This document shows positions 11,936 through 35,476 of a stretch of DNA of 35,702 nucleotides, piece after piece (the stretch's first letter is position 1; each line of letters opens with the position of its first letter). Below the pieces are notes generated by a model. It worked only from the letters and a program-made list of their open reading frames with translations, was not told the origin of the DNA and made no database searches. The position numbers and the translations under genes were made by a program. Origin of the DNA: Promethearchaeota archaeon (GTDB taxonomy: Archaea > Asgardarchaeota > Lokiarchaeia > Sigyniarchaeales > SOKP01); assembly GCA_030606095.1 (NCBI GenBank), contig JAUWHC010000002.1, positions 1 to 35,702 on the forward strand, written 5' to 3'.

Positions 11936-11951
11936 TTTTAATCGTCCTAGT

Positions 11952-12554: not shown

Positions 12555-12610
12555 GCTAGCTAAATTTGATTTTGTAAATTTAATCGCTCTAAAACTAATT
12601 TTTTATTCAC

Positions 12611-16570: not shown

Positions 16571-16578
16571 TCATTCTC

Positions 16579-17204: not shown

Positions 17205-17230
17205 CTAAATAGCACCTTTTATCTTTAACA

Positions 17231-18301: not shown

Positions 18302-18719
18302 TTAAAGTTCACCTTAAATCACACCCTTTTTATTATTAGAATTAATTAGATAATAACTAAAAACATCCAATTGAGTTTGAACATTAATATTTATCTTAGT
18401 TAGATTATTAGTGGTAAAAAAGACTAACTTATTATAATTTGATTTGAAAAAATGAAAAATGGAATAATACTTATGTTTATTATTAATTATTCTTCACTTT
18501 AAATCATATTTGACATAATAATAAATTTTAATATTATAAATATTTCTAAAAACATTCATTTTTAAGTAAAGAAAAAAAGAAGAATTTTCCAAAGTTTTAT
18601 ATTTATAAACCCTTCATCGAGAGAATTTTAATATATTTAAAAAATCTCTTTTATAAATTAGTTTTATTAAAAAGGAGAAGCATAGAAAAACAAAGATTTA
18701 AATTAATAATACTTATTAT

Positions 18720-20285: not shown

Positions 20286-20357
20286 AAGTATTCCAAATCA
20301 AGAAAAAAAAGTTTGATTATTTTTAGATATCAGATTAAAAAAAGAGGTAATAGAAAA

Positions 20358-21491: not shown

Positions 21492-22460
21492 TTAACTCAA
21501 TTTTGATGTTAGGTGCATAAATAATTCATCAAGACCTTCTCCTGTAAGGGCTGATGTCTCAAAATAGGTTAAATTATATTGCTGGGCAATTTGATTTGCT
21601 TTATTTGAAATTTCCGTTCGATTTTCTATTAAATCCACTTTATTTCCAACTAAAATATATGGAATTTTTTCTGCATCAGTAAATTGATGTGCTTCTTCAA
21701 TCCATTCATAAATTTCATTCAATGTATCAATTTTTGAAAAATCAAACATAATTATAACTGCTTCAGCATTGTGATAAAAAGGTTTTCGAATTTTTGCAAA
21801 ACATTTCAGGCCTCCCATATCATATATATGGAAAATTAATTTCATTTGTTTAGTGATTTGGAACTCTTTTTCAACAAAAGAAACACCAAGTGTTGGTATA
21901 TACTCTGTTTTAAAATTTCCATTGAAAAACATCTCAACTAAAGAACTCTTACCTGCTTGGTCCAGTCCAACGATAATAATGTTATGTATTAGATTTTTTT
22001 CATTAACAGCATCAGAATTAATTGATTTGTGAAGGATCTGCCCATTATCCTTAAAAGAAGGAAGAGAAAGAGATATGGAAGTATCTTGATAGTTTAAAAC
22101 TTGAGAAACCTTTTCAGCAACGATATAAGAATAAGGGATATATTTTAATATTTCTTTATAATGATCAGTAACTATAGCAAATATCGCGGGAGATTTACAA
22201 CCTAATTCCATATAAAATAATCTAAACGCATTAGTATCAAAAGTTCCACTACCAAATGAAGTTTTAGCAAATCGTTTTATTTTATGAATTGTTTCATCGA
22301 GGATACTAACAATTGCTCCTATAATATCTTCATCGAAGTCGTAGACAGATTGTTGAGCAATAATTAACCCATCATAATCTACAATTAAGACTGATAATAA
22401 ATCAGGAGTTTCAGATAAAAAATTTGTTAATAATTCGTCTAATACTGATACTTTTAGCAT
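21492..22460 (-). CDS. Roadblock/LC7 domain fused to a Ras/Rab-like small GTPase
   Basis: aa 1-125 are Roadblock-like (DLLSVLIVDYDGLIIAQQS, IIGAIVSILDETIHKIKRF, AIFAIVTDH). aa ~158-322 form the G domain: G1 GLDQAGKSS, switch I YIPTLG, G3 DMGGL, G4 NKVD, G5 ETSAL. Confidence 0.85.
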   Translation of the reverse strand: MLKVSVLDELLTNFLSETPDLLSVLIVDYDGLIIAQQSVYDFDEDIIGAIVSILDETIHKIKRFAKTSFGSGTFDTNAFRLFYMELGCKSPAIFAIVTDHYKEILKYIPYSYIVAEKVSQVLNYQDTSISLSLPSFKDNGQILHKSINSDAVNEKNLIHNIIIVGLDQAGKSSLVEMFFNGNFKTEYIPTLGVSFVEKEFQITKQMKLIFHIYDMGGLKCFAKIRKPFYHNAEAVIIMFDFSKIDTLNEIYEWIEEAHQFTDAEKIPYILVGNKVDLIENRTEISNKANQIAQQYNLTYFETSALTGEGLDELFMHLTSKLS

Positions 22461-22556: not shown

Positions 22557-23621
22557 TCAATTTTTAGTTGCATTAATCTTCATATAAATATGGTTTTTTG
22601 GATCAATTAATTTTAAGTTCGAATTAGATTGAAAAAGCGTCTCAGTTTTCCCTAAAAATAATAGACCGCCTTCCTCTAAGTGATCTTCAATAATTTTTAA
22701 AAAAATTCTTCGATTTTCCCTATTAAAATAAATTAACAAGTATCTACAAAATATTATATCATATTTCAAAGAATACTTATGACCTCTAGTAACATCCTCA
22801 CAAATAAATTCAATCTGCTCTTTAATTTTTTCATTTAAGATATATTTATAGCTTGAAGCTTCTTTTTGTTTTGTGATATACTTCACTTTATATAATTGCG
22901 GTATATTTTCCATTGAATTAGCATAAATTCCTTTCTTTGCTTTTTGAAGAGCATTAAAATCAATATCTGAAGCAATAATTTTATAATTAGGAAATTTTAT
23001 AAACTGATTTCTAAGGTCATCTAATATCATAGCTATAGAGTATGGTTCTTCTCCGGAAGCACAAGGGCATGACCATATATATATTGGCTTTTTAGAAGAT
23101 CGTATTTTGTAATAAAGGGACGACTGAATAATAGAAAATGCGTTGAGGAAATTCTTTGTCGCTAAAATTGACTTAAGAAACAAAGTAGCCTCTTCATGAT
23201 TTTTAATCAATAAGTTAGTGAATTTTCTTAATATTAGTTTATCATTTAAAATCTCTTTATTTTTTAATGGATCAATTAAAGCATCCTCTATTTCATTTTC
23301 TATAATTTTGCTTTTACAATCTAAACATTCAACAAAGAGATCTTCAAATTTTTTGAAAACTTCTTTATTTCTAAAAAAGTAAGAGTAATTGATATTAAAT
23401 TGGTCCTTAAATTTTTCACCCTCATGATCCAAATGTGCTAAAAGATAAGTATAATATGAATTATAAGAATCACAATTTACATGAAGCATTCTAGCTCTGA
23501 TTCTTTTTTCTATGAAAGCTTTTCGATACATCCCAAAATTTATTCCTGTTTCCTTTCCTATTGAAGTAATCAAGCTATCATAAAAATCATCTTCAATTTG
23601 GATATCAGTAAGACCAATCAT
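22557..23621 (-). CDS. cheR: Chemotaxis methyltransferase CheR with an insertion of about 75 aa
   Basis: 354 aa. N-terminal helical domain ending in FFRNKEVF. SAM-binding IYIWSCPCASGEEPYSIAMIL, IIASDIDFNALQKAKKGIY, and YDIIFCRYLLIYFNRENRRIF...GGLLFLG. Extra segment at aa ~98-172 between FFRN and the SAM motif. Confidence 0.9.
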   Translation of the reverse strand: MIGLTDIQIEDDFYDSLITSIGKETGINFGMYRKAFIEKRIRARMLHVNCDSYNSYYTYLLAHLDHEGEKFKDQFNINYSYFFRNKEVFKKFEDLFVECLDCKSKIIENEIEDALIDPLKNKEILNDKLILRKFTNLLIKNHEEATLFLKSILATKNFLNAFSIIQSSLYYKIRSSKKPIYIWSCPCASGEEPYSIAMILDDLRNQFIKFPNYKIIASDIDFNALQKAKKGIYANSMENIPQLYKVKYITKQKEASSYKYILNEKIKEQIEFICEDVTRGHKYSLKYDIIFCRYLLIYFNRENRRIFLKIIEDHLEEGGLLFLGKTETLFQSNSNLKLIDPKNHIYMKINATKN

Positions 23622-23651: not shown

Positions 23652-24170
23652 TCAATCCAATATGATCGATTGAATTCTCAATAGTCTCTTTCCAATATGG
23701 TCCATTGTATATTTTATATGCATTTGCATCTCACTTATTTCAGATAATATGCTATTAATTTGACTTTTTTGTGAGCCTGATAATTTACTTTCAATTCTTA
23801 TTTTTTCATTAGAAGATATTTTCTTACTTTTAATTGAGAGTTTTCTTGATTCTCCCGGGTAATTTAAATCTGTTCTCCCCTCATTTATTTCATGAAATAG
23901 AATAATAAATTCATCAGGTTCATATCCTTGTTTTACTATTTCGTATTTGTAATTATAGAAATTCTTTTTAGCTTTTAGTTTAATTGCCCATGTTGATGCC
24001 ATATATCTTTGAAAGAGCTTTGAATTATTCCCCGCCCAAATCCAAATTGTGTTTAAATCCTTATCGACTAACAGGTAAACAGCCCTTTCTTTAAAATAAT
24101 TACCAGGATTTTGTTTTATTACATCTCCTTTAACTTGATAAATATTTTTTTTATAATTATCATTTAACAT
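23652..24170 (-). CDS. Single gelsolin-domain protein with helical C-terminal tail
   Basis: aa ~10-95 align by eye with the gelsolin G1 pattern: IYQVKG...YFKERAVYLLVDKDLNTIWIWAGNNSKLFQRYMASTWAIKLKA...YEIVKQGYEPDEFIILF versus LFQVKG...[40 protein letters not shown]...VHVSEEGTEPEAMLQVL. aa ~100-172 are S/K-rich and then helical. Confidence 0.75.
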   Translation of the reverse strand: MLNDNYKKNIYQVKGDVIKQNPGNYFKERAVYLLVDKDLNTIWIWAGNNSKLFQRYMASTWAIKLKAKKNFYNYKYEIVKQGYEPDEFIILFHEINEGRTDLNYPGESRKLSIKSKKISSNEKIRIESKLSGSQKSQINSILSEISEMQMHIKYTMDHIGKRLLRIQSIILD

Positions 24171-24254: not shown

Positions 24255-26228
24255 TTATTCATAAAATAGTGCTAATTTATCTAATAAATCTTGTAGACTT
24301 TTTAAATCCGGAATATATAAAAATGTCCCTGTGATTTTTATATCAGAAACAATGACATTCGTTGTTATCACAAGCGAGAGTTTCTTAATTAATCCAATTT
24401 CATCTTGTAAAATTTTAAATAATTGTGTACCAGTATCTATACTCAAATCTGGTGGTTCTGTCATCATTTTCATGTCCAATAAATCCCCGATGGCACTAGC
24501 ATAATGACTTGCTAAAATGTGTCCAAGCTCGCTTATAGCGCTTTCAAAGAGATCACTAAAATCACTAACTGATTTAATATCCTTAGAGTTATAGTTATAA
24601 TCCCCATCAGTAATAATTGAACCTATTTTTATAATATCAGTTAACTTAAAAATAGAAACGATTGTTGCTTTTGCTTTTCCAATAATATTACTCCAAGATA
24701 CAAAAAGTTTTATGTTTCTCTTACTTATATTTTTGGCAAATTTATCTAACTCTACCATTTCTACTACGGGGATATCAATATCTACTCGTTTTTTAATCAT
24801 CCTAGCTAGAGCATTGGCAGCATTACCCGCTCCAATATTACCTACTTCTTGTAGTGCGTCTCTTTGAATATCAGTGAGTTTTACATTTTTTAATACCTCA
24901 TCTTCTAATTGTCTTGTTGTTTTCGTTGATATGCTTTTTATTTGATCAGAAATTAATTTATTGTCGATATTAAGCTTTTTAAATATGTTTTCTATTGTTA
25001 TTAAATCAGGAATAAAGAAAAACATCCCATTTAATTTTAAATCAACAACATTTATTGATGTTTTAATTGATATGAGAAATTTAATATTTGCTTTTTGTTC
25101 TTTTAAAAGAAAATCTCCTATTGACGCTGTTCTACTAAAAGCAAAATCGGGAACATCTATTAGCATTTTAGTTCCTAATAAATCTGCTATTGCAGACACA
25201 TAGTGCCCAGCCATAATATTCCCCATTTCTTTTATTGTAGAAATTGTCATTTCGTTTAGATCACTCTTGCTTTTAATATTACTTATAGGAGTTTTAAGTT
25301 TATTTTCCGATAAATCTTCGACTAATTTCAACAATGGAACCAAATCAAAAACTTGAAGGATTGTAGATGTCGAAGTATTTTCTATAGTAGAGAAAATTCC
25401 GCAGACTTTTTGATTACTATTTCCAAGATATGTACCTAAATTATCAAAAGATATTATTCCTACATCTGTAAGACTTACATCAATCTTTTTCTTGATTAAT
25501 CGAGATAAGGCAGTAATTGCATTTCCAGACCCAATATTTCCTATTTCTTTTAAGGTATCATGTTGATTTTCAGAAAGTGTTATTATATCTTTTGATTTAG
25601 AAACAGTTTTGATGCTTTTAGGTTTCTTTTTCCTTGAAGTCGATACTTTAATAGGAGCAACTTTTTGAACACGGGGTTTACTTTTTGTTTTTATTAAATT
25701 ATGACTTTTAATTTTTGGAAGAGGTTTAAATTCTACTTCATGTACGCTATTGGTTTTACTAATATCAGTTAAAAGCAATGGTGAAATTAATGATTCTAAA
25801 TCTAATAAAATATAAGCCATTTCATTCATTACTCCAATAGATTTAATTAATTTAGAATTTATATTTGTCTCGATAATCGATTTTTTTTTCGTAAAGATTG
25901 AATATGGAATTTCGCTAATACCAATAATAGAATCTACTAATAAAGCAATTTTTAAATTATCCCTTTCTAAAAGCAAGATTCGAGAATTTTCATTAAGATC
26001 GTCATTTATTTCGTTCGAATATATCATTTGTCTCAAAGAGATGATGGAATATATTTCACCCCTTATATCGATTAATCCTACAATGGATTTGTCAGATAAT
26101 GGAACTGGAACGATTTTATCACCAGGAATAAAGATTTCCTTAACATCCTTCACATCTAACAAATATTTTTCGTTTAATATTTTAATAATAACTGCATTAA
26201 AATTACTATTTTGTTCTGTTTCAATCAT
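24255..26228 (-). CDS. CheW-like domain fused to two complete CheC phosphatase domains
   Basis: aa ~10-150 are CheW-like (YLLDVKDVKEIFIP..IVPVPLSDKSIVGLIDIRGEIYSIISL...ALLVDSIIGISEI). A basic linker follows (aa ~160-215). Four CheC half-site helices: HDTLKEIGNIGSGNAITALS, STIKEMGNIMAGHYVSAIADLL, DALQEVGNIGAGNAANALA and SAISELGHILASHYASAIGDLL. Confidence 0.85.
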   Translation of the reverse strand: MIETEQNSNFNAVIIKILNEKYLLDVKDVKEIFIPGDKIVPVPLSDKSIVGLIDIRGEIYSIISLRQMIYSNEINDDLNENSRILLLERDNLKIALLVDSIIGISEIPYSIFTKKKSIIETNINSKLIKSIGVMNEMAYILLDLESLISPLLLTDISKTNSVHEVEFKPLPKIKSHNLIKTKSKPRVQKVAPIKVSTSRKKKPKSIKTVSKSKDIITLSENQHDTLKEIGNIGSGNAITALSRLIKKKIDVSLTDVGIISFDNLGTYLGNSNQKVCGIFSTIENTSTSTILQVFDLVPLLKLVEDLSENKLKTPISNIKSKSDLNEMTISTIKEMGNIMAGHYVSAIADLLGTKMLIDVPDFAFSRTASIGDFLLKEQKANIKFLISIKTSINVVDLKLNGMFFFIPDLITIENIFKKLNIDNKLISDQIKSISTKTTRQLEDEVLKNVKLTDIQRDALQEVGNIGAGNAANALARMIKKRVDIDIPVVEMVELDKFAKNISKRNIKLFVSWSNIIGKAKATIVSIFKLTDIIKIGSIITDGDYNYNSKDIKSVSDFSDLFESAISELGHILASHYASAIGDLLDMKMMTEPPDLSIDTGTQLFKILQDEIGLIKKLSLVITTNVIVSDIKITGTFLYIPDLKSLQDLLDKLALFYE

Positions 26229-26266: not shown

Positions 26267-27130
26267 TTAATTCATTTTAACCATAATTCCTTTCCATATA
26301 AGCTCAACCTGCGGTTCTTCTTGAATAATTTCAGAAAAATAACCAATTTGTTTAAAAATCGAGATTTGGCCCCCGTTTGTCTTATCGTAGATATAATCAA
26401 GCATATCTTCCGTACTGCTAAAATTAAATCCCGCGAGTTCAAATCGTTCATGATCATCATCGTCAATCTTGATTATCAATAAGTCCTCGCCATCGAATTG
26501 TTTACTTAAATCAATCCATTCTAACCAAATATCAGGAATAATAGATTTATTTCCAATAGCAAAAGCATCCGATATGGGAATATTTCTATAACTTTTACAA
26601 GCGGCAATGATGACTTTATTCGGAATAATTTTATTCCTTTTTGCAAATTCAATAAAATTGCTTATAATTTCCATGTAATTATCTAATTCTAATATCTGGA
26701 GGCATGTAATAAAAATCAAATCCTTAGCTTCTGTTTCAACGATGAAATCTATCATATTATTTTTTTCATTAATTCGATTTACATAAACAGAGTTACTTTT
26801 AAAACCTCTTACATATTTTAAATATTGATACAATCTCCATTTTAAGGCTTTTTTTGTATTAATCTCTTTACTTATAAGAATTTGGTAAAGACTTTTTAAT
26901 TGATTTGTAGTAAACCTAGAAAAATCTGCTAAATCTTTGTTATTGGTATCTATTTTAATATATCCATTGGCCAAAGTTGATTTTTCATTCTTCCCAAGAG
27001 CTTCATTATTGATATCTTTTAATATAGTTTGTAATTCTTTTTTTGTAAAAGCTGGTTTAAGCTGTTCTAAAAAATATTGTAAATTATTTTTGGATTTATC
27101 CAATAATGTCTCATAATATTGAAAATTCAT
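26267..27130 (-). CDS. Hypothetical protein (possible PD-(D/E)xK-like core)
   Basis: 287-aa ORF in the che cluster. The central segment RGFKSNSVYVNRINEKNNMIDFIVETEAKDLIFITC...KVIIAACKSYRNIP weakly resembles a restriction-endonuclease-like fold. No confident family. Confidence 0.45.
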   Translation of the reverse strand: MNFQYYETLLDKSKNNLQYFLEQLKPAFTKKELQTILKDINNEALGKNEKSTLANGYIKIDTNNKDLADFSRFTTNQLKSLYQILISKEINTKKALKWRLYQYLKYVRGFKSNSVYVNRINEKNNMIDFIVETEAKDLIFITCLQILELDNYMEIISNFIEFAKRNKIIPNKVIIAACKSYRNIPISDAFAIGNKSIIPDIWLEWIDLSKQFDGEDLLIIKIDDDDHERFELAGFNFSSTEDMLDYIYDKTNGGQISIFKQIGYFSEIIQEEPQVELIWKGIMVKMN

Positions 27131-27192: not shown

Positions 27193-30100
27193 TTATCCAA
27201 AAACAAATGACTCCAGTTTGTCAAAGCTAATCTTCTCACCACTTATATTTTTAACATAATATCTAACTTCTTCTTCCTGGAAAGGCAAAATGTTATCAAT
27301 TTCAAATGTTATAAGATTTGAATCCACGCCATCTAACTCAGAAATTTGACTTTTAATATTTGATGATATGAATTTAAAAGATTGGGATATCGTATCCTTT
27401 ATTTTTACATTCTTGACTTCGATATTTGAATTATTGATTACCATAAGACTAATAGCAAATTCATCCAATTCCCTTCCCGGAAAGATTTCCTTACTAACTA
27501 ATAAATCTCGACGCTTATGCATTATTTTCAATTCTGGCAATTCGTTTTTATTTAGCTCATTTTCAATTATATACAACTTTCCTTGATCAAACTTTTCTTT
27601 TGGGTAATAAGACTTTACTATAAGTGGAAACACATAAGATTTTTTATGATCAGGAGCAATTGCATTGAAGAAATATCTAATCTCTAAATATTCATCAATA
27701 TCTATGATACAGTCAGAATTAGTTACATCTAAATTTACAGCGATCTCTAATATGTGCGGAACTGATGAGTCCTGATTATTAGGATATATGTTTATTTTTA
27801 AGTCCTCAAAATCTTTCCTTCCTGAGGATGTTCTTATACGAAAATCTGATTTCTCGATTGGTGGTATGAAATCAGCGGGGATTTCCTCTCTTATTAAAAG
27901 TCCTTTGACTGGAGTCGTGCCAATATTTTTTATGATAAGTAAATCCTCTAATTTTGTTTCTTCAAATGATTTTATCTCTGACTTAGATAATTTTTTAGAG
28001 ATTGATAAATTCACAATTTCAAAAATGTCTTCCTCAAAGTTAATATTAATTCGTGATATTTTTTCACTTTTTTCAATAACGGAATATTCTAGCTTTCTAT
28101 AAAATTTCGGTTCAAATTTATCATGTATTTGCCACTCTTTACTAATAAACCTATCCCCATGTTTAATAATTTTTTTTCCATTTTTATCATTAAATTTTAA
28201 ATCGATTAATTTATTTTTTTTATCTTTATCTAATATTAAAATTGATCTTAATTCCATGTCCATATCACTATTATTTTTAAAGATTAACGAACAATTCCAT
28301 AAGTTTGGTGCGTCTTCTTGTTCTTTTTTCTTTATAGCATGCAAAGCATGAGAATATGCTGTAAAGTTTTCAAACTCAATACCTGAAATCAAACAGTCTC
28401 TAAATTCAAATGATAATCGAATTTCACCTGTTCCGAAAATCTTTTTTTCTTTCGGTTTTATGTCAGTATGGATTATAATAGCTATTTCTTCATTAGGTTT
28501 GAGATCTTTTATAGAAAAAATTATTTGATTTTTATTTGTTTCAGTATTTGCTATAGCTTTGCTGTCAAATTTAAAGTTAGAAAAATCAGGAGGAAAATTT
28601 TTAATTAATTTTGTGTTTCTCATTACGAAGTTTGAACGATTTTTTAGCACGATTGTGAATTTTATTAAATTTAATTTATTAAATAAAATTAAAGAATTGG
28701 TATCCAATGTTGATTTAATGGGTTCATTATTTAGGTCATTGTCATCAGAGTCAAAACTCATTAACATCTCTTTTTTTCTTAAAGATTCTTCTTTTAGATC
28801 CTTGGATTTTCCATCTAATTGAGTATCACGCTCATTTTCCAAATCCTTTATTTTATCATCTAGCAGTTCCTTTTTTTTTACTAATTCATTAATTTCAGCA
28901 ATAATATCATTTAAGGATCTTTGTTCTGTTTCTAATCTAGCCTCAATATTTTTTATTTTTGGATTATATTCTTCGATAATTTCTTTTAATTTGATTATTT
29001 TCTTTTCTTTTTCACTAATTTTATTTCTTAACGATTTTATATTATTTTTTTTAATTTTAGTATTTTCGTTCACTTTTGTATTTAAAAGCGTATCTTTTGT
29101 TTTAGTGGTCGTACTAATCTGTTTTTTCAAATTCTTTAAATTTTCTTTAGATTTTTTATTTCTATCGGTAAGTTTCTTTATTTTTTGATTAATTACATCT
29201 AATTTAGATTGATTATCTTTTAATTCAATTTCCGTATCATTAATTTTGGGATGATATTTTTCCTTAACTTCTTTTTTTTTCGAATCTTCATTCAATATAT
29301 TTTTTAAAGCTTTTGATTCTTCTTTTATAAGGATATTGTGTGCTTTTTTTAAGTTTTTAACAATAGTAATTTGATTTTTCTTTTTAACAATCTGTTCTTC
29401 AAGTTCCTTACTACTTTGATTAAAATCTTCTTGCTCTACATCTAGTTTTAAAGTAAATTCTTCTATTTTTGGGTTTAAATCTTCACTAACTTCTTCTTTG
29501 ATAGTTTTTTCTTTCTTTAAATATTCATCTTCAACAACCAAAACTTCTTTTTCTGTTAGCTTAATTTGTTCACTAAGCTTTTTAATTTTAGATTCTAAAC
29601 CCAAGATTTCTTGAGAATTAAATTCGGTAATCTTTTTTTTATCTTTAAGCCCTTGAGCTTTAAGTATTGAATTGATTAATGTTTTAAAGTCATTTTCTAA
29701 ATTACTTCTAACTTTTTCTAATTCTGTCTTTTTTGCTCTTAGCTCATCTAGTTTTTTATTAATATCGTCCATATTTGCATAATCTGCTTTTAATTTTTCT
29801 TCACTTGTTTCTTTTTCAGGAGATAATTCATTTTCTTCTGTAATTATATCATCTTTAGATTCTACATCATCATCTTTTATTGGTTTGTATAATTCAGATT
29901 TGAGTTCATGAATAGATTTAGCATTTATATTCATCACTTCTATATTTTCATTAAGGTCGATAAGATCTAGTAAATCTTCTGAATTTGAAATAGTATAGCT
30001 TATGTTTTTTGAATTTTTAGGATCAAAATTACCAAAATTAATTAGCTCATCTTTATCAAGATTTATTTTTTCACAGTCTGAGAGTTTTAGATTAACATCC

Positions 30101-30369
30101 CAAACTCGATCTTTCTTAGAATTATTTAATATCGTAATATTGCCCATTCCAGTAAAACTTTCTAATATCTTCCTATTATTATATTTAAAATCTAAAGTTT
30201 CTTCGTTTCTTATAAGAATATTTGAATCGTATTCGATATTACTGAACTTCACTTCCTTATCTAATGTTGTTAAGGTTTCTTCTTTTTCAATGTGTTTCAA
30301 AGGTATTCCAATGAAAACAGGGGACATTATTGTCTCTAATTCTTTAATATCTATTTGTTTAAAACCCAT
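27193..30369 (-). CDS. Large cytoplasmic protein: beta-sandwich module, ~350-aa coiled coil, four further CARDB/DUF11-like beta-sandwich modules
   Basis: 1058 aa with no signal peptide or TM helix. aa ~185-535 are K/E/N-rich heptad-like sequence with three copies of E-x-[LY]-[NH]-P-K-I-x3-E-x2-L-x2-[EN]-Q (aa 296, 370, 466). The flanking modules carry the strand pattern x-[IV]-x-[LV]-x-N-x-[SG]-x3-[VM]-x-[ND]-[VT]-x-[LI] (ITILNNSKKDRVWDVNLKL; FTIVLKNRSNFVMRNTKLI; LLIIKNIGTTPVKGLLIRE; ISLMVINNSNIEVKNVKIKD). Confidence 0.6.
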   Translation of the reverse strand: MGFKQIDIKELETIMSPVFIGIPLKHIEKEETLTTLDKEVKFSNIEYDSNILIRNEETLDFKYNNRKILESFTGMGNITILNNSKKDRVWDVNLKLSDCEKINLDKDELINFGNFDPKNSKNISYTISNSEDLLDLIDLNENIEVMNINAKSIHELKSELYKPIKDDDVESKDDIITEENELSPEKETSEEKLKADYANMDDINKKLDELRAKKTELEKVRSNLENDFKTLINSILKAQGLKDKKKITEFNSQEILGLESKIKKLSEQIKLTEKEVLVVEDEYLKKEKTIKEEVSEDLNPKIEEFTLKLDVEQEDFNQSSKELEEQIVKKKNQITIVKNLKKAHNILIKEESKALKNILNEDSKKKEVKEKYHPKINDTEIELKDNQSKLDVINQKIKKLTDRNKKSKENLKNLKKQISTTTKTKDTLLNTKVNENTKIKKNNIKSLRNKISEKEKKIIKLKEIIEEYNPKIKNIEARLETEQRSLNDIIAEINELVKKKELLDDKIKDLENERDTQLDGKSKDLKEESLRKKEMLMSFDSDDNDLNNEPIKSTLDTNSLILFNKLNLIKFTIVLKNRSNFVMRNTKLIKNFPPDFSNFKFDSKAIANTETNKNQIIFSIKDLKPNEEIAIIIHTDIKPKEKKIFGTGEIRLSFEFRDCLISGIEFENFTAYSHALHAIKKKEQEDAPNLWNCSLIFKNNSDMDMELRSILILDKDKKNKLIDLKFNDKNGKKIIKHGDRFISKEWQIHDKFEPKFYRKLEYSVIEKSEKISRININFEEDIFEIVNLSISKKLSKSEIKSFEETKLEDLLIIKNIGTTPVKGLLIREEIPADFIPPIEKSDFRIRTSSGRKDFEDLKINIYPNNQDSSVPHILEIAVNLDVTNSDCIIDIDEYLEIRYFFNAIAPDHKKSYVFPLIVKSYYPKEKFDQGKLYIIENELNKNELPELKIMHKRRDLLVSKEIFPGRELDEFAISLMVINNSNIEVKNVKIKDTISQSFKFISSNIKSQISELDGVDSNLITFEIDNILPFQEEEVRYYVKNISGEKISFDKLESFVFG

Positions 30370-30416: not shown

Positions 30417-32519
30417 TTATATTGTTGTTTCCAGGTCTATTTCTTGAAGCGTCGGTAGTTCGTCGTTTTTAGAAGAAATTATATTCAAAACATCAAGAAT
30501 TAAACAAATTGATCCATCTCCTGTAATTGAAGTACCTAAAATTTCTTGAAATCGTGAGAATCTTGTTCTAAAGGGCTTCATAACGATTTCCATTTGTTGA
30601 AGAATTTCGTCTACAACAAATAAAGCTGAATTCTCTTCATCTTTTTCGCATAAAATTGCAATTTTCGCAGATGAATTCGCCTTGGTTTGATCTTTATTTT
30701 TAATTAAAAACTCTAAGTATTTATTTAGCCATATTATGGGTATTAATTTTGAATTTAATCTATAATATTCCACTCCTTTAATATATTCTATTAAGCCCCG
30801 ATCAAAAAAATAAATTTGTTTAATATTTTCAATTGGAATTGCAAATAAATCACCACCAACTTTCATTAATTGTGCTTTTAGTATAGCCCTTGTGAATGGA
30901 ACTACAAGCGTAAATGTTGTACCTATATCTTTTTCTGAATAAATACTTAACGATCCACCTAACTCTTCTATTTTTTTTGCTACTATGGCCAATCCCATTC
31001 CCCTCCCAGAGATCAAATTCGCCCCTTCAAGAGTCGAAAAGCCTGATGAAAAAATTATTTCATTTAATTGTTCTGTAGTTAATGCCGAGGCTTCTTCTTG
31101 AGAATAGAGTTCTTTTTCTACAGCTTTTTGTCTAACCCTTTCATAATCAATACCACTCCCGTTATCTTCTATTTCAATGTATATTGAACCTGCACTTCTA
31201 AATGTTCTGAGGTTTATTACCCCAAATTGATTTTTATTTTTAGCTTTCCTCTCACTAGGTGTTTCAATTCCATGATAAATGGAATTTCGCAAAATATGCA
31301 TTAGGGGGCTATTTAATTCTTCAAGAACTTTTCGATCAATTTCCACATCCATTCCTTCTAATGTAAGTCTAACCATTTTTCCATTACTTTTAGCTACATC
31401 TCTTACAAGTCTTCGGTATTTCCTAAAAGTTGAATCGACTCGGACCAATTTTAATTTAAAAATAATTTCTTGAATCTCAAGAAAAAGTTTATCCATATTA
31501 TCAAAAAATAGATTAACACCCCTTTCTTGTCTATCTTCTAAAACTTGGTTTATCTGATTTTTTATTATTACAAGTTCTCCGAAATAATTCATTAATTGTT
31601 CTATAACATCAATATCTATTTTTACCGAATTTATTTTACTTGTACCATAAGCTAAATCAGCCCCTAATGATGGCAATTCTCCTTGATCTTCCTCTACAAA
31701 TAGTTGTTCATTAGTTTTATAATCTTCTGTTGAAGACTGTGCAAATTTTTCCTTTTGAGCTAATTTTAGATTAAATTCTAAATTAAATTTAATTAAATCT
31801 TCAGCACTTATTTTTGTTATAACTATATTTTCTATCTCTAAGATTTCATCTATAGCGTTCTGTATTTTATCAGAATTTAATTCAGATAAAAAATAAACAG
31901 TAAAACTATTTTTAAAGTCCCCCATTTCTAACTTATCTGGTTCAGGGATACTAGCGCAAATTCTACCAATTTCATTTAATGCTCTAAATATTATAAATAA
32001 TCTTACTTTTTTAAAAACACAAGTAGACTGAATCTGAATAAATATTTTATAGAATTTATTTTTCTGATTCTTTTTAGAATTTTCTAATTCTTCTTTAGAA
32101 ATGGGTTTAAAGAGCGTAATACCATATTCGGAATCGAGTGCTTCAAAAGAATAATTTAATCTTTCTAACTCTTGTTCATTTAAATCTTTAACTTCCCCTT
32201 TTTTTATTTTTTCGATTGTATTTCGGATTACATCAAGACTTTTGAATAAGGAATCTATAATTTTGCCTTTATTTTTTATCTGTTCTTTAAGATTTTTATT
32301 TTTTTCAAGAAAAGTCTCAAATTGATGGATAAATTTTGATAAATTTTCAAGACTTACCATAGCCGTCAAACCTTTCAAAGTATGATAAACATAGAAAAGT
32401 TCTTGAATTGGTTTGTTGTTTTTTGGATTTTCTTCTAATATTAATAAATTATCTTCAATTTTTTGAATTAGATCTTCTGCTTCGCTATAAAATAGCTTCA
32501 TATCCTTATCTGAAATCAC
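30417..32519 (-). CDS. cheA: Chemotaxis histidine kinase CheA (P1 Hpt, P3, P4 HATPase, P5 CheW-like)
   Basis: 700 aa with a GTG start. Hpt His46 in YVYHTLKGLTAM (nt 32382-32384). N-box HILRNSIYHGIE, G1 DNGSGID, G2 SGRGMGLAIV. C-terminal CheW-like domain (GGDLFAIPIENIKQI...FVVDEILQQMEIVMKP). Confidence 0.95.
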   Translation of the reverse strand: MISDKDMKLFYSEAEDLIQKIEDNLLILEENPKNNKPIQELFYVYHTLKGLTAMVSLENLSKFIHQFETFLEKNKNLKEQIKNKGKIIDSLFKSLDVIRNTIEKIKKGEVKDLNEQELERLNYSFEALDSEYGITLFKPISKEELENSKKNQKNKFYKIFIQIQSTCVFKKVRLFIIFRALNEIGRICASIPEPDKLEMGDFKNSFTVYFLSELNSDKIQNAIDEILEIENIVITKISAEDLIKFNLEFNLKLAQKEKFAQSSTEDYKTNEQLFVEEDQGELPSLGADLAYGTSKINSVKIDIDVIEQLMNYFGELVIIKNQINQVLEDRQERGVNLFFDNMDKLFLEIQEIIFKLKLVRVDSTFRKYRRLVRDVAKSNGKMVRLTLEGMDVEIDRKVLEELNSPLMHILRNSIYHGIETPSERKAKNKNQFGVINLRTFRSAGSIYIEIEDNGSGIDYERVRQKAVEKELYSQEEASALTTEQLNEIIFSSGFSTLEGANLISGRGMGLAIVAKKIEELGGSLSIYSEKDIGTTFTLVVPFTRAILKAQLMKVGGDLFAIPIENIKQIYFFDRGLIEYIKGVEYYRLNSKLIPIIWLNKYLEFLIKNKDQTKANSSAKIAILCEKDEENSALFVVDEILQQMEIVMKPFRTRFSRFQEILGTSITGDGSICLILDVLNIISSKNDELPTLQEIDLETTI

Positions 32520-32543
32520 ACTTAACTCATTCTCCTCTATTTT

Positions 32544-32927
32544 TTATTTTTTTTTTAAAAGAATTCTTTGCAAAACATCAATAACTTGTTCATTTTTAAA
32601 TGGTTTTTGAATAAAATCTTTAGCCCCTTTTTTTGCAGCTTCAAGAACTAATGCTTCTTGGCCTAAAGCTGAAACAACCACAATTAACGCAGATCTATCA
32701 AATCTTATTATTTCTTCAATAGTCTCAATACCCCCCTTTTCTGGCATAACAAGATCCATAGTTACTAAATCTGGTTTTAATTGTTTATATAAAGCAATAG
32801 CTTCATTTCCATTTGCAGCTTCTCCAATTACTTCAGTAAAATCTGTTTTGTCTATAATCTTCTTTAACATATTCCTCGTAAAGCGGGCATCGTCCGTTAT
32901 CAGAATTCTTTTTTTACTGTTACTCAT
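32544..32927 (-). CDS. cheY: Chemotaxis response regulator CheY
   Basis: 127-aa single REC domain with ILITDDA, the phospho-acceptor in LVTMDLVMPEKGG, VVVSALG and FIQKPF. Lies immediately upstream of cheA. Confidence 0.9.
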   Translation of the reverse strand: MSNSKKRILITDDARFTRNMLKKIIDKTDFTEVIGEAANGNEAIALYKQLKPDLVTMDLVMPEKGGIETIEEIIRFDRSALIVVVSALGQEALVLEAAKKGAKDFIQKPFKNEQVIDVLQRILLKKK

Positions 32928-32967
32928 CTAATCACTCTCTTTTTAAATATTATTATTTTCTTTATTT

Positions 32968-33501
32968 TTACATAATAGATAAAAGTTCTTTTTTTATTGT
33001 TGAATGTTCAGCTTCATTAAGAACTTTACTAAGATCAATTAAAATTCTTGGTTTATCTTTTAATTTTATAATTCCTTTAACATATTCAATTCCAACGCTA
33101 GTTTGGAAAATTGGGCTTAATTCAACTAGGCTTTTTCTATTGATATTAATTACATTAATAATTCGGTCAACAAGAAAGCCAATAAATGTATCAATAATGT
33201 TTAATATTATGATAAAATTTGTTGTTGAGCCTAAACTGTCCTGATCTGCTTCATCATTTGATGAGATTTTCTTAGATTTATGCAAAAAAGTATTATTTAG
33301 GTTTAATTTCTTTTTTAAATTAACAATATGAATGATCTCTCCTCTATAGTTATAGATACCTTCAACAAAATCAAAACTTTTTGGTAATCTCCTTATTTGA
33401 TTCGCTTGAACAATTTCTTTAACTTCAAGAAGGTTGATTGCAAATTGTTCCTTATTTACTTCAAATATAATAATTGATATTTGTTCTGTTATTTCTTCCA
33501 T
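32968..33501 (-). CDS. cheW: Chemotaxis coupling protein CheW
   Basis: 177 aa. FAINLLEVKEIVQ...IRRLPKSFDFVEGIYNYRGEIIHIVNLKKKL...IGFLVDRIINVINI. Carries an acidic/Ser-rich insertion of about 15-20 aa (SSNDEADQDSLGSTT). Confidence 0.85.
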   Translation of the reverse strand: MEEITEQISIIIFEVNKEQFAINLLEVKEIVQANQIRRLPKSFDFVEGIYNYRGEIIHIVNLKKKLNLNNTFLHKSKKISSNDEADQDSLGSTTNFIIILNIIDTFIGFLVDRIINVININRKSLVELSPIFQTSVGIEYVKGIIKLKDKPRILIDLSKVLNEAEHSTIKKELLSIM

Positions 33502-33523
33502 TCTTTTTCTACCTCATTTTTTA

Positions 33524-34342
33524 TTATATTACAAAATATTCATCAATTAAATCTTCAAAATTATTGAATCGTGTAACATTACCATCAAATTGCGATACAT
33601 AATCTGAATATTCTGATAAAAATTCATCAACTATTAGATACATGTATCTTTGAATCAATGGCTTCATTTTTTTTACTAAATATGCAAAAATTACATCATT
33701 TTTAACAATCATATAAAAATGTTGATTTCCAAAATTAATTTCTTTTAATATTGCTCCTGATTCTTCGTTAATAATCTCTTTTGAAAATGAAAATAATGCT
33801 GAAATAAATCCACTAATTTGAACTTCGCTCTTTGAAATGAAAGTTTTATTTTTATTAATTTTCGTAATGTAAGGGCTTCCTGTTGCTCCAATAATTAATA
33901 GTGCTAAGACTCCATCTGCTCGTGGCACTTGTATAATCTCATTACAAAAATGTTTTATTTCTAAAAATGATAAATTTGATTGCCATCTTTCATTAATTTT
34001 TTTTGAAATAATATACAATTTTCCGTAACTCGTTGGGTTTTCTTTTTCATCCATGTAAATTATTAGTAATATGTTTCCTTGCTTATTTTCAAAAAAGTGA
34101 ATGATTACAGTATAATCATCTAAGGGAACAATAGAATTTCCTTTTTTTTTTTCTATGAATTCGTTTTTATATAATTCGAGTAAATTTTGAATAAACGGAT
34201 TTCCCATTCCTTTTTGGAAAATTATATCTGTTTTTCCTCCTAAATTGGTTTTAGTAAATTCTACTAATCCAAAACCAAATATCTGTAAATGATTTGAATT
34301 GTTATTTATTCTATGGGAATATTTCATAATTATCATTTGCAT
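33524..34342 (-). CDS. Hypothetical protein with two longin/roadblock-like alpha-beta-alpha halves
   Basis: 272 aa. Second half: GVLALLIIGATGSPYITKINKN...VQISGFISALFSFSKEII..GAILKEINFGNQHFYMIVKNDVIFAYLVKK...LIVDEFLSEY. First half: IFGFGLVEF...GNSIVPLDDYTVIIHFFENKQGNILLIIYMDEKENP...LYIISKKINERW. Both fit the longin/roadblock strand-helix-strand pattern by eye. Confidence 0.45.
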   Translation of the reverse strand: MQMIIMKYSHRINNNSNHLQIFGFGLVEFTKTNLGGKTDIIFQKGMGNPFIQNLLELYKNEFIEKKKGNSIVPLDDYTVIIHFFENKQGNILLIIYMDEKENPTSYGKLYIISKKINERWQSNLSFLEIKHFCNEIIQVPRADGVLALLIIGATGSPYITKINKNKTFISKSEVQISGFISALFSFSKEIINEESGAILKEINFGNQHFYMIVKNDVIFAYLVKKMKPLIQRYMYLIVDEFLSEYSDYVSQFDGNVTRFNNFEDLIDEYFVI

Positions 34343-34444
34343 TATGCCTATTATTTTTAATTTATTTTTTTATTATCCATACTTATTTGTTAATTATGAA
34401 AAAAAAGTGGGATTTCAACCACAATATAATTTTTTTTAATTTTA

Positions 34445-35476
34445 TTAGCTGACAGCTTCTAATGCTTCTTTGGGTTTCTTCAATATTACTTCCTTTTTTA
34501 CAGCTTTTGGCGATTCTTCAGGCTTTCTAACCCTTTTCGGAACTATTTTTTCTACTTTTTTAGGTTTTTTGATTGCTCTTGGCCCTTTATCAGCCTTTTC
34601 TTCTTCACCTTTATGTATATCCAGTATATCTTTGAGTTCTTCTGCGATAGTGACTAATTTATTTGCTGTTTCGTCAATTTCATCCATAGCCGTTTTTTGA
34701 TTATCTGAAGCGCCCATTATTTGTTCTAAAGCTACTTCATTTTCTTCTTCGTGGTGTTCAACTCCCTCAACTTCTTTGTTAATATTATCGATTTCTTCGA
34801 CTACTTTTTTTATTAATGTTTCTATTTCCTCTATTTTTTCGCTTGAGGAAAGAACAGCACTTTTAGACTCTTCAGCGAGTTTTCTAACCTCATCGGCTAC
34901 AACAGCAAAACCTCTACCGTGTTCACCCGCTCTTCCCGCTTCTATGCTCGCATTAAGGGCAAGTAAGTTTGTTTGTTCAGAAATGCTGGTGATAATTTCC
35001 AATACTTTATCAATATCAGTAGTGTGATCTAAAACTTCATGTATGTGTTGATCGGAAAGTCCCACATGGTTTACAATTGCTTTAAGAGCATCAACTTGAC
35101 CTATCGTTGCTTCTACAAGACCATGAGTTTTCTCTGAGATATCTGTAGCGTGAGCGTCTACTTCGTCTGCACCTGCTGCTAGTTCTTGGCCTATATTAGC
35201 TACATTAATAGCAACCTCTTCAGCATGATCAATAACATCTTCCATTTGATGTTCTTTAAGGTCTATTTCTCTAATTGCATGAGTCGCTTTTCTAACGACA
35301 GAATAGTTGAGACCGATTCCTAATATCAGCGATACGATTAAACTAACAATTAATAATGAAGTTTTAATTTCTCTAGTACCGTAAATCTCCATAGGAAGGA
35401 TGCCTATAAGCCCTACCATGAACATCAGCAATAATATTACTCCAATGTTTATAATTATTTGATTTCCTATTTTCAT
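34445..35476 (-). CDS. Minimal methyl-accepting chemotaxis protein (2 TM helices, no ligand-binding domain)
   Basis: 343 aa. TM1 aa ~6-27, a loop of about 10 aa, TM2 aa ~39-60. Highly conserved signalling tip [39 protein letters not shown]-terminal K/P/E-rich tail of about 50 aa. Confidence 0.9.

What the first reader, a model, noticed from the sequence alone, without database searches (positions are those of the whole stretch)
21492..22460. Roadblock-small GTPase fusion with Leu at the catalytic Gln position (G3 = DMGGL)
The G domain has intact G1 (GLDQAGKSS), switch I Thr (YIPTLG), G4 (NKVD) and G5 (ETSAL). G3 reads D-M-G-G-L instead of DxxGQ. The minus-strand codon CTG at 21807-21809 puts Leu218 at the position of Ras Gln61. 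In Ras, Q61L abolishes efficient hydrolysis. This GTPase may therefore be intrinsically locked, or may need a catalytic residue supplied in trans. The covalently attached Roadblock/LC7 domain has the fold of MglB, the GAP of MglA, so the protein could be a self-contained switch-plus-regulator. It is the last gene of the che cluster.
Basis: partly seen in the sequence, partly recalled or inferred. Interest (0 to 1): 0.7.

Follow-up and report, generated by a model that had tools for sequence, protein, structure and literature searches.

The report
Gln-less Roadblock–Rab-like GTPase in Asgard chemotaxis operon
This gene encodes a Roadblock domain fused to a Rab-like GTPase whose whole family lacks the usual catalytic glutamine, and it is a conserved part of an Asgard-archaeal chemotaxis operon that also carries a longin-like and a gelsolin-domain protein, which points to a function for at least one of the many Asgard small GTPases.

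Summary
ORF 21492-22460(-) encodes 322 aa: a Roadblock domain (aa 1-122), a flexible linker, and a Rab/Ras-like G domain with intact G1, G2, G4 and G5. G3 reads DMGGL, with Leu218 (CTG 21807-21809) aligned to Ras Gln61.

About 100 Asgard orthologues have L/I (84%) or S/F/A/M/V/T/K at this position and never Gln. They also lack a conserved switch-I Arg. The nearest paralogues (~520 aa) keep both.

The cis "MglB-like GAP" reading is weak, because MglB only positions MglA's own Gln and Arg.

In all 10 loci examined, the gene lies in a chemotaxis cluster with a conserved gelsolin-domain ORF wherever that stretch was covered (8 of 10), plus CLIPPER-like and unknown ORFs in most. The 272-aa ORF is longin-like and leads the operon in the window and the one other locus reaching that far. 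Its C-terminal domain is fused N-terminally to the Roadblock-GTPase in a subfamily (hhalign 98%, E 2e-13).

Best reading: a slow, partner-regulated switch that acts as an accessory or output module of the Asgard Che pathway. I found no paper reporting this link. I rate it a new variant of a known kind, interest about 0.65.

The parts
21492..22460 (-). Whole gene: Roadblock-linker-Rab/Ras-like GTPase, 322 aa plus stop
22095..22460 (-). Roadblock/LC7 domain (aa 1-122; alpha-beta-beta-alpha-beta-beta-beta-alpha). It is very highly conserved, including the near-invariant loop T67-S-F-G-S-G-T-F-D-T-N77.
   Evidence: Pfam Robl_LC7 in 24/25 orthologues; AF2; Foldseek to LAMTOR, MglB and Rag CRD; conservation
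21999..22094 (-). Linker aa 123-154. It has low pLDDT (145-150 below 50) and variable length, with an invariant Pro134.
21495..21998 (-). G domain aa 155-322, Rab/Ras-like, with no C-terminal Cys
   Evidence: Pfam Ras 124 bits; PDB Ypt51 3.8e-23 and Thor-Rab 2.3e-21; Foldseek Rab4/5/27 TM 0.83-0.91
21945..21968 (-). G1/P-loop GLDQAGKS (aa 165-172). The family consensus is G-[SP]-[ED]-x-V-G-K-[ST]: acidic at the Ras Gly12 position and no Asn at the K+-site position.
21885..21902 (-). Switch I / G2 YIPTLG (aa 187-192). Thr190 is invariant and there is no conserved Arg finger.
21807..21821 (-). G3 DMGGL (aa 214-218). Leu218 (CTG 21807-21809) is at the Ras Gln61 position.
21633..21644 (-). G4 NKVD (aa 273-276)
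21546..21560 (-). G5 ETSAL (aa 301-305)
33524..34342 (-). 272-aa longin-like protein, the second gene of the cluster here and the first in L024. Its C-terminal domain (aa 142-269) is homologous to the N-terminal extension of a fused Longin-Roadblock-GTPase subfamily. It is a candidate partner (GEF/GAP platform).
23652..24170 (-). 172-aa single gelsolin-domain protein, conserved at this position in related che clusters. It is a candidate downstream effector.
22557..23621 (-). CheR, immediately upstream (96-bp gap)
24255..26228 (-). CheW-CheC fusion (657 aa)
26267..27130 (-). 287-aa Asgard-specific protein of unknown fold, conserved in the cluster
27193..30369 (-). 1058-aa cytoplasmic CLIPPER/DUF11-domain protein with a lineage-specific coiled-coil-like insertion
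30417..35476 (-). Upstream block of the cluster, in direction of transcription: MCP (34445-35476), the 272-aa longin-like ORF (33524-34342, listed separately above), CheW (32968-33501), CheY (32544-32927), CheA (30417-32519)
8146..9684 (-). Displaced orthologue of the second CheB-like gene, which directly follows the GTPase in other genomes

Best explanation
SHOWN: The gene encodes a two-domain protein, an N-terminal Roadblock domain and a C-terminal Rab/Ras-like G domain. It belongs to a narrow Asgard-only orthologous family. All residues for GTP/Mg2+ binding and switch sensing are kept (P-loop Lys, Thr190, Asp214, Gly217, NKxD, SA). The catalytic Gln is replaced by a non-conserved, mostly hydrophobic residue. 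The Ras Gly12 position is acidic, and no intrinsic Arg finger is conserved. The gene is embedded in a che operon in all 10 loci examined. That operon also carries a longin-like protein, a gelsolin-domain protein, a CLIPPER-domain protein and an unknown 287-aa protein. A subfamily fuses the longin-like domain directly to the Roadblock-GTPase.

INFERRED: The protein binds GTP and switches conformation but hydrolyses very slowly on its own. Its nucleotide state is set by partners, not by its own Roadblock domain. The Roadblock domain serves as a dimerisation and docking platform, as in Rag GTPases and Ragulator. It most likely pairs with the operon's longin-like protein, whose family resembles the first longin domain of the MON1/FUZ/HPS1 Rab-GEFs.

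Functionally it is an accessory or output module of the Asgard chemosensory pathway. It would convert CheA/CheY signalling into a GTPase state that acts on localisation or polarity, or on the actin cytoskeleton through the co-encoded gelsolin-domain protein. This is analogous in logic to Frz -> MglA/MglB in Myxococcus.
For: Identity and motifs.

Roadblock fold.

Family-wide loss of Gln: position 218 is L70/I17/S7/F3/A2/M2 with single V/T/K and 0 Gln in 104 sequences. The ~520-aa paralogues have Gln218 and Arg188 invariant. No K+-site Asn is present in the P-loop.

Che linkage: the window plus L001/L002, L003, L004, L005, L006, L020, L021 and L022 all have the gene inside a che cluster. A paralogue with Gln is not che-linked.

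Longin partner: Fuz_longin_1 hits in 8/57 of the 272-aa family, best E 4.6e-5. Longin PF13774 hits in 4/9 fused proteins. hhalign of the fused N-extension against the 272-aa family gives prob 98%, E 1.9e-13. The homologue is the first gene of the operon in L024.

Gelsolin ORF: PDB hits to villin and Asgard 2DGel/ProGel, E 4e-7 to 3e-4, with 45-51% identity in the other clusters.

MglB needs MglA's own Gln and Arg (PMC4316618). Chemoreceptor arrays and che genes are reported in L. ossiferum, and that paper names no archaellum (PMC9834061).
Against: No biochemistry exists, so hydrolysis rate, nucleotide state and partners are all inferred. The AF2 model gave no coordinates or PAE, so the Roadblock/G-domain interface could not be inspected. 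A cis contribution (for example from the near-invariant TSFGSGTFDTN loop, Asn77 in 91/102) is not excluded.

The longin assignment rests on sub-threshold or minority Pfam hits plus a transitive profile match. The direct profile against PDB gave only E about 0.2 to dynein Roadblock.

Some Asgard archaea with che genes do have archaella (bioRxiv 10.1101/2025.07.22.663070), so the output may be conventional and the GTPase only an accessory.

Gene adjacency is not interaction. The one fused-subfamily locus examined (L025) is cut just upstream and shows no che gene.

Several loci carrying different phylum names share identical downstream synteny, so the taxonomic breadth may be narrower than the record names suggest.
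Confidence: 0.5

Rival explanations
1. Constitutively GTP-bound scaffold. With non-Gly at the Ras-12 position and non-Gln at the Ras-61 position (as in kappaB-Ras or Rnd proteins), the protein never cycles. GTP is a structural cofactor, and activity is controlled by expression or binding, not hydrolysis.
For: Residue 218 is variable (L/I/S/F/A/M/V/T/K), as expected if no catalytic chemistry is selected there. Position 167 is acidic and no Arg finger is conserved. Q61L is the standard GTP-locking mutation, used for example for Asgard ArfR crystallography. The kappaB-Ras/Rnd precedent is from my own knowledge.
Against: Switch I and II are strongly conserved: Y187, P189, T190, G192, K198, F221, K223, R225, Y229. 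A co-encoded and sometimes fused longin-like domain is present. Both suggest regulated nucleotide-dependent interactions. Neither excludes a locked state.
Confidence: 0.22
2. Self-contained switch plus regulator. The covalently attached Roadblock domain acts in cis as an MglB-like GAP, or supplies the missing catalytic residue itself.
For: The Roadblock domain superposes on MglB at TM about 0.7. The full-length AF2 model has pTM 0.87, which suggests a defined inter-domain arrangement. The Roadblock domain is more conserved than the G domain and carries a near-invariant polar loop with Asn77 (N in 91/102; D/E in the Gln-containing paralogues). That loop could act as an 'Asn thumb' in cis.
Against: MglB provides no catalytic residue and needs the G protein's own Gln and Arg, both absent here. 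Asn77 is not invariant. The linker is about 30 residues of low confidence. No coordinates were available to test proximity to the gamma-phosphate.
Confidence: 0.12
3. Dimerisation-activated GTPase (GAD type). Roadblock-mediated homodimerisation juxtaposes two G domains, which complete each other's active sites. This resembles Roco, MnmE or septin-like HAS-GTPases.
For: Roadblock domains are obligate dimerisers in MglB, LAMTOR and Rag (structures matched). HAS-GTPases with a hydrophobic residue in place of Gln do hydrolyse GTP by alternative machinery (PMC2848588; bioRxiv 10.1101/2020.08.16.253419).
Against: The P-loop lacks the Asn that coordinates K+ in cation-dependent HAS-GTPases (position 168 is A/S/K/Q). 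No family-specific invariant Arg/Glu/His candidate was identified in the G domain beyond residues also conserved in Ras and Rab (R225 = Ras R68).
Confidence: 0.12
4. The che adjacency is incidental. The GTPase is one of the many Asgard trafficking-type small GTPases and has nothing to do with chemosensing.
For: Asgard genomes encode dozens of small GTPases, and most ESPs are not in conserved neighbourhoods (bioRxiv 10.1101/2020.10.19.343400). L025 shows a family member with no che gene in the short visible upstream stretch.
Against: All 10 loci examined have the che linkage, at 49-81% protein identity, despite rearrangements elsewhere. The linkage persists when the cluster is split, as in L021. 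The closest paralogue is not che-linked.
Confidence: 0.05

Closest known systems
Asgard Roadblock/longin-small GTPase fusions (Klinger et al. 2016 as summarised in PMC4917890; Tran et al. 2024, PMC10933270)
   Same: The kind of architecture is the same: a Roadblock (and in a subfamily longin + Roadblock) domain fused to a Ras-superfamily G domain. It is Asgard-restricted and has no lipid-anchor Cys.
   Different: Tran et al. describe the MK-D1 RB/longin fusions as mostly Rag/Arf-like, whereas here the G domain is Rab/Ras-like by Pfam, PDB and Foldseek. This orthogroup lacks the catalytic Gln. It is che-operon-embedded, and no che context is mentioned in those papers.
MglA/MglB polarity module with the Frz chemosensory system (Myxococcus)
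   Same: A small Ras-like GTPase plus a Roadblock-fold regulator is functionally coupled to a Che-type pathway. The Roadblock domain superposes on MglB.
   Different: MglA has TxxGQ with an intrinsic Gln and Arg finger; here the motif is DxxG[LI] with no Arg. In Myxococcus the genes are separate and not in the frz operon. Here the two domains are fused and the gene lies inside the che operon.
Rag/Gtr GTPases with Ragulator/LAMTOR
   Same: A G domain is covalently joined to a Roadblock domain that dimerises and docks on Roadblock/longin platforms. Top Foldseek hits include Lam/LAMTOR subunits and Rag CRDs.
   Different: The domain order is reversed (Roadblock is N-terminal). The G domain scores far better to Ras (124 bits) than to Gtr1_RagA (32 bits). 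Rag proteins keep the catalytic Gln.
Naturally Gln-less Ras-superfamily proteins: Rap (Thr61, RapGAP Asn thumb), bacterial Rup1 group 1, kappaB-Ras, Rnd
   Same: A canonical G domain lacks Gln at the G3+1 position, implying trans catalysis or a locked state. Rup1 is likewise embedded in a signalling gene cluster (PMC4316618).
   Different: Those are single-domain proteins, bacterial or eukaryotic, with different partners. A specific relationship to Rup1 was not tested.
HAS-GTPases (Era, EngA, MnmE, FeoB, YqeH, RbgA)
   Same: A hydrophobic residue replaces the catalytic Gln (PMC2848588).
   Different: Those belong to other GTPase classes and mostly use a K+ ion bound by a P-loop Asn. That Asn is absent here.
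Tri-longin Rab GEFs (Mon1-Ccz1, Fuz-Inturned, HPS1-HPS4)
   Same: The operon's 272-aa protein family gives hits to Pfam Fuz_longin_1, the domain that contacts the Rab in these GEFs. The partner GTPase here is Rab-like.
   Different: Only 8/57 members hit, and at modest E-values. The protein is 272 aa rather than tri-longin. GEF activity is untested.

Membership tests
Ras superfamily small GTPase (Rab/Ras-like, 'RasL') | G1 GxxxxGK[ST], G2 Thr, G3 DxxG, G4 NKxD, G5 SA[KL] in a ~170-aa Rossmann-like G domain | tested here: met
   All motifs are present and invariant in the family. Pfam Ras E 5e-36. Foldseek TM up to 0.91 to Rab5.
Ras superfamily small GTPase (Rab/Ras-like, 'RasL') | Catalytic Gln after DxxG (DxxGQ) | tested here: not met
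   Leu218 here; 0 Gln in 104 orthologues. This feature is also absent in accepted members (Rap, Rup1), so it does not exclude superfamily membership.
Eukaryote-type Rab | C-terminal prenylatable Cys motif and RabF motifs | tested here: not met
   The C-terminus is ...HLTSKLS with no Cys. RabF motifs were not scored individually.
Roadblock/LC7 (MglB-like) domain | alpha-beta-beta-alpha-beta-beta-beta(-alpha) fold matching Robl/MglB/LAMTOR | tested here: met
   Pfam PF03259 in 24/25 N-domains. AF2 topology. Foldseek to LAMTOR, MglB, MK-D1 Roadblock3 and Rag CRD, E 1.6e-6 to 1e-4, TM 0.6-0.75.
MglA/MglB GTPase-GAP system | G protein with an intrinsic catalytic Gln and an intrinsic switch-I Arg finger that the Roadblock dimer repositions; MglA-type G3 (Thr instead of Asp) | tested here: not met
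   G3 is DMGGL (Asp kept, Gln absent). Pro189 sits at the Arg position and residue 188 is variable. Mechanism as stated in PMC4316618 and PMC3000849.
MglA/MglB GTPase-GAP system | GAP activity of the Roadblock protein on the G protein | not testable with these tools
   Needs GTPase assays with and without the Roadblock domain.
Rag/Gtr GTPases | N-terminal Gtr1/RagA-type G domain followed by a C-terminal Roadblock domain; heterodimer via the CRDs | tested here: not met
   The domain order is Roadblock then G. Gtr1_RagA scores 32 bits against Ras 124 bits. Dimerisation was not testable.
HAS-GTPases (cation-dependent) | Hydrophobic residue in place of Gln, plus a P-loop Asn (GxxNxGKS) and K-loop for K+ | tested here: not met
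   The hydrophobic substitution is met (L/I in 84%). P-loop position 168 is A/S/K/Q/R/T, never a conserved Asn.
Chemotaxis (Che) operon component | Conserved co-location and co-orientation with cheA/W/Y/R/B/C/D across genomes | tested here: met
   All 10 loci examined. Functional participation is not testable here.
Longin domain (for the partner ORF 33524-34342) | Profile or fold match to longin domains | tested here: inconclusive
   Fuz_longin_1 in 8/57 homologues, best E 4.6e-5. Longin PF13774 in 4/9 fused homologues whose N-extension matches aa 142-269 at hhalign 98%, E 1.9e-13. The direct PDB profile search gave only dynein Roadblock at E about 0.2.
Bacterial Rup1 (group 1) | Single-domain Ras-like GTPase lacking the G3 Gln, in a four-gene signalling neighbourhood | not tested
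   No Rup1 sequences were compared. The description comes from PMC4316618.

The most novel reading that the evidence does not exclude
The Asgard che operon may be a hybrid pathway. A bacterial-type chemoreceptor/CheA/CheY array would signal through an operon-encoded eukaryote-like module: a longin GEF-like protein, a Roadblock-Rab-like GTPase and a gelsolin-domain protein. The target would be the actin cytoskeleton and cell protrusions rather than (or in addition to) an archaellum. That would be a prokaryotic forerunner of receptor -> small GTPase -> actin chemotactic wiring, and the first operon-level functional assignment for an Asgard small GTPase.
Probability: 0.2. Interest if true: 0.9.

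Novelty: new variant of a known kind. Interest (0 to 1): 0.65.

Why it matters
Asgard genomes encode dozens to more than 100 small GTPases and many Roadblock and longin proteins, and their cellular roles are essentially unknown. Whether operon context could reveal their targets was posed explicitly as an open question (PMC4917890). Later surveys found few conserved ESP neighbourhoods.

Here one well-defined orthogroup, a Gln-less Roadblock-Rab-like GTPase, is tied by conserved synteny and a domain fusion to a chemosensory operon. The same operon carries a longin-like protein and a gelsolin-domain protein. This yields concrete, testable hypotheses:
- who loads and unloads the GTPase;
- whether CheY-P talks to it;
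- whether the output is actin.

A cultured relative exists in the lineage. Ca. L. ossiferum shows chemoreceptor arrays and an actin cytoskeleton, and its paper names no archaellum.

The family also adds a natural 'Q61L-type' Ras-like protein with a sister paralogue that retains Gln and Arg. That pair is a useful evolutionary contrast for studying GTPase mechanism.

Tried and rejected
1. K+-dependent HAS-GTPase mechanism: rejected, because there is no conserved P-loop Asn.

2. P-loop Gln168 of the window protein as a substitute catalytic residue: rejected, because the position is A/S/K/Q/R/T in the family.

3. Intrinsic Arg finger: none is conserved.

4. Sequence-profile search of the Roadblock domain against PDB: only CvnB5 at E 0.44. 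The fold had to be shown by AF2 plus Foldseek instead.

5. Foldseek with the full-length model: the top 50 listed matches aligned through the G domain, nearly all to small GTPases, none to a Roadblock protein, and said nothing about the Roadblock domain or the interface.

The rest were distant bacterial or archaeal GTPases.

7. The 287-aa cluster protein: no Pfam or PDB relationship, even with a 38-sequence profile. Its function is left unknown.

8. The 272-aa protein against the GTPase's own Roadblock domain by hhalign: E 0.13, inconclusive.

9. Sigma-70 promoter and intrinsic-terminator scan around the gene: no more hits than in shuffles, and not applicable to archaea anyway.

10. Literature searches for any report linking Asgard che clusters with small GTPases, longin or gelsolin: none found in the searchable library. 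Klinger et al. 2016 itself is not in the library.

11. Inspecting the AF2 inter-domain interface: not possible, because no coordinates or PAE are returned.
Full report
**1. What is in the sequence**

ORF 21492..22460 on the minus strand encodes 322 aa. Pfam finds a Ras-family G domain at aa 161-321 (E 5e-36). It also finds a marginal Roadblock/LC7 hit at aa 8-57 (21.1 bits; cutoff 23). Leu218 is the codon CTG at 21807-21809.

The window has about 27% G+C. Every named homologue is from Asgard archaea. The record names are Promethearchaeota/Lokiarchaeota, Hermod-, Hod- and Thorarchaeota.

**2. G3 register**

- MAFFT alignment of the family with H-Ras, Rab5a, Rap1a, Arf1 and MglA places D-M-G-G-L under D-T-A-G-Q and D-V-G-G-Q.
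- HMMER alignments to Ypt51 and Rab30 give the same register.
- The AF2 model (pLDDT 87.4, pTM 0.87) superposes on Rab4, Rab5, Rab27 and Ypt51 with TM 0.83-0.91.

**3. Roadblock fold**

- The isolated N-domain reaches the Pfam cutoff. 24 of 25 orthologous N-domains hit Robl_LC7, best E 4.5e-7.
- AF2 gives alpha-beta-beta-alpha-beta-beta-beta-alpha.
- Foldseek of the N-domain model returns Ragulator/LAMTOR subunits, MK-D1 Roadblock3, T. thermophilus and M. xanthus MglB (TM up to 0.72) and Rag C-terminal domains, at E 1.6e-6 to about 1e-4.

The second refutation test, 'not a Roadblock fold', also fails.

**4. The missing Gln is a family trait**

The database search found about 108 full-length homologues of about 315-325 aa at 44% identity or more. 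In 104 aligned members the Gln61 column holds L 70, I 17, S 7, F 3, A 2, M 2 and single V/T/K, and never Q. The next residue is K or R in 102 of 104.

The Ras Gly12 position is Glu or Asp in 84 of 104. The P-loop position that binds K+ in cation-dependent GTPases is A/S/K/Q, not Asn. The residue at the MglA Arg-finger position is Pro189, and residue 188 is K/R/I/H/S.

All nucleotide- and Mg-binding residues and most of switch I and II are invariant or nearly so. The protein should therefore bind GTP and switch. It lacks every known intrinsic catalytic element.

The nearest paralogues (P0110-P0120, about 520 aa) have Roadblock + G + a C-terminal extension. They have Gln218 and Arg188 invariant. 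The one locus examined for them is not a che cluster.

**5.

MglB stimulates MglA by positioning MglA's own Gln and Arg finger (PMC4316618). A Roadblock domain acting the same way in cis would have nothing to position here. The idea is not excluded. The Roadblock domain is extremely conserved and has a near-invariant TSFGSGTFDTN loop, with Asn77 in 91 of 102 family members against Asp/Glu in the Gln-containing paralogues. But it is the less likely reading.

A Roadblock domain as a dimerisation and docking platform is the more conventional role. That is its role in Rag and Ragulator, which are among the best structural matches.

**6. Genomic context**

On the same strand upstream lie, in order:
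- MCP
- a 272-aa ORF
- CheW
- CheY
- CheA
- a 1058-aa CLIPPER/DUF11 protein
- a 287-aa ORF
- a CheW-CheC fusion
- a 172-aa ORF
- CheR
- the GTPase

Downstream is a convergent LCIB-type carbonic anhydrase, a 521-aa ORF and the A-type ATPase operon.

I retrieved nine other loci: L001/L002 (Lokiarchaeum GC14_75), L003, L004, L005, L006, L020, L021 (a complete 3.3-Mb genome) and L022. In every one the orthologue sits in a che cluster.

The typical order is CheA, CLIPPER, ~285 aa, CheW-CheC, ~180 aa, CheR, CheB, CheD, CheC, GTPase, second CheB-like gene. Two loci depart from this:
- L005 and L006 show no CheR hit between the gelsolin-domain ORF and CheB.
- L020 is cut and begins at CheB.

The linkage survives a split of the cluster in L021.

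The window and its 81%-identical relative L022 lack CheB, CheD and CheC between CheR and the GTPase. The orthologue of the second CheB-like gene is at 8146-9684 in the window, separated from the GTPase by the ATPase block.

Matching contig lengths in the tables indicate at least nine further contigs on which the GTPase and the cluster-specific 287-aa protein co-occur.

**7. The other non-Che genes of the operon**

*The 172-aa ORF* is a single gelsolin domain. Its PDB sequence hits are villin 4e-7, Asgard 2DGel3 8e-7, a ProGel-like protein 2e-5 and Lokiarchaeal gelsolin 3e-4. It is conserved at 45-51% identity at the same position in the other clusters.

*The 272-aa ORF* has about 130 Asgard-only homologues and no precomputed Pfam domain. 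In L024 it is the first gene of the operon. Scanned individually, 8 of 57 members hit Fuz_longin_1, the first longin domain of FUZ, MON1 and HPS1, best E 4.6e-5.

More telling is a subfamily of the Roadblock-GTPase (P0037, P0040, P0045, P0108, P0247, P0249, P0250, P0257, P0261; 467-498 aa, G3 still without Gln). It carries an N-terminal extension of about 150 aa that is homologous to aa 142-269 of the 272-aa protein:
- blastp E 1e-5 to 6e-10;
- hhalign probability 98%, E 1.9e-13;
- the extension hits Pfam Longin in 4 of 9 members.

This is a Rosetta-stone fusion (Longin-Roadblock-GTPase). It argues that the operon's longin-like protein and the Roadblock-GTPase work together physically.

*The 287-aa protein* remains without any detectable relative of known function.

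*The CLIPPER-domain protein* has no predicted TM segment or signal-like N-terminus. In this lineage it carries an insertion of about 380 aa that is rich in charged heptad-like sequence.

**8. Best explanation**

*Shown:* domain identities, loss of catalytic residues, conserved che embedding, and the longin fusion.

*Inferred:* the protein is a GTP-binding switch with negligible intrinsic hydrolysis. Its state is controlled by partners. The most likely partner is the operon's longin-like protein, whose family resembles the Rab-contacting longin domain of Mon1/Fuz-type GEFs. The protein would act as an accessory or output module of the Asgard chemosensory pathway. The logic parallels Frz -> MglA/MglB in Myxococcus.

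The co-encoded gelsolin-domain protein makes actin a plausible target. Ca. L. ossiferum shows chemoreceptor arrays and che genes, and the paper describing it mentions no archaellum (PMC9834061). At least one other Asgard archaeon has both che and archaellum genes.

I give this composite about 0.5. The rivals are a permanently GTP-locked scaffold (0.22), cis action of the Roadblock domain (0.12), dimerisation-dependent hydrolysis (0.12) and incidental adjacency (0.05).

**9. Comparison with what is known**

Already in the literature:
- Roadblock- and longin-GTPase fusions in Asgard archaea (PMC4917890; PMC10933270).
- Gln-less Ras-like proteins: Rap and Rup1.
- HAS-GTPases.

kappaB-Ras and Rnd come from my own knowledge.

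Not found in any searchable paper:
- this Rab-like, Gln-less Roadblock-GTPase orthogroup as a conserved che-operon gene;
- its association with a longin-like and a gelsolin-domain protein;
- the contrast with a Gln/Arg-retaining paralogue.

Supplementary tables of the large Asgard surveys could contain the neighbourhood without comment. I could not check that.

**10. Caveats**

- There are no coordinates or PAE for the AF2 models.
- The longin assignment is by minority or sub-threshold profile hits plus a strong transitive match.
- Phylum names of MAG records may overstate breadth. Several differently named loci share identical downstream synteny.
- The single fused-subfamily locus is truncated upstream.
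- Everything about activity and partners is inference.

Noticed in passing
window 23652-24170 (-): A 172-aa single gelsolin-domain protein lies inside the che cluster, between the CheW-CheC fusion and CheR. Its PDB hits are villin and Asgard 2DGel/ProGel, E 4e-7 to 3e-4. It is conserved at 45-51% identity at the same position in Loki-, Hermod- and Hod-labelled clusters.
   Followed up: partly
window 33524-34342 (-); P0037/P0040/P0045/P0108 and relatives: The 272-aa ORF near the head of the cluster is longin-like (Fuz_longin_1 in 8/57 homologues). Its C-terminal domain occurs as an N-terminal fusion to the Roadblock-GTPase in a 467-498-aa subfamily (hhalign 98%, E 1.9e-13), giving a Longin-Roadblock-GTPase architecture.
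   Followed up: yes
window 26267-27130 (-): A 287-aa protein is conserved in every related che cluster (42-45% identity in distant loci). It has about 80 Asgard-only homologues and no Pfam or PDB relationship, even with a 38-sequence profile. Its invariant residues include C143, R182, D216, Q255 and W279.
   Followed up: partly
window 27193-30369 (-): A 1058-aa CLIPPER/DUF11-domain protein lies directly after CheA, with no predicted TM segment. Orthologues elsewhere are about 665 aa. This lineage (also L022) has an insertion of about 380 aa (roughly aa 160-540) of Lys/Glu-rich coiled-coil-like sequence.
   Followed up: partly
window 8146-9684 (-) and 9728-21164: A 512-aa response-regulator + CheB-methylesterase protein is the orthologue (48% identity) of the 'second CheB' that directly follows the GTPase in other genomes. 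Here an LCIB-type carbonic anhydrase, a 521-aa unknown ORF and the whole A-type ATPase operon lie between them. Canonical CheB, CheD and CheC are absent from the window's cluster, as they are in the 81%-identical relative L022.
   Followed up: partly
P0110-P0120 (e.g. L023 8001-9638): The ~520-545-aa paralogues have Roadblock + Ras-like G domain + a C-terminal extension of about 190 aa. They retain Gln at G3 (DIGAQ) and an invariant switch-I Arg. The one locus examined has no che genes nearby.
   Followed up: partly
window 500-5185 (+), 5276-5956 (-), 7051-7794 (-): A 1561-aa cytoplasmic multi-PAS/GAF histidine kinase and two small HisKA + receiver proteins sit next to the displaced CheB-like gene. 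This makes the region a dense signalling neighbourhood.
   Followed up: no
L025 1-438: Upstream of a fused Longin-Roadblock-GTPase gene, at the contig edge, is a partial ORF with a Roadblock-like sequence pattern (…VIACSVLERDGFVIASL…) instead of a che gene. Downstream synteny (a homologue of the 521-aa ORF, then the ATPase operon) matches the window.
   Followed up: no
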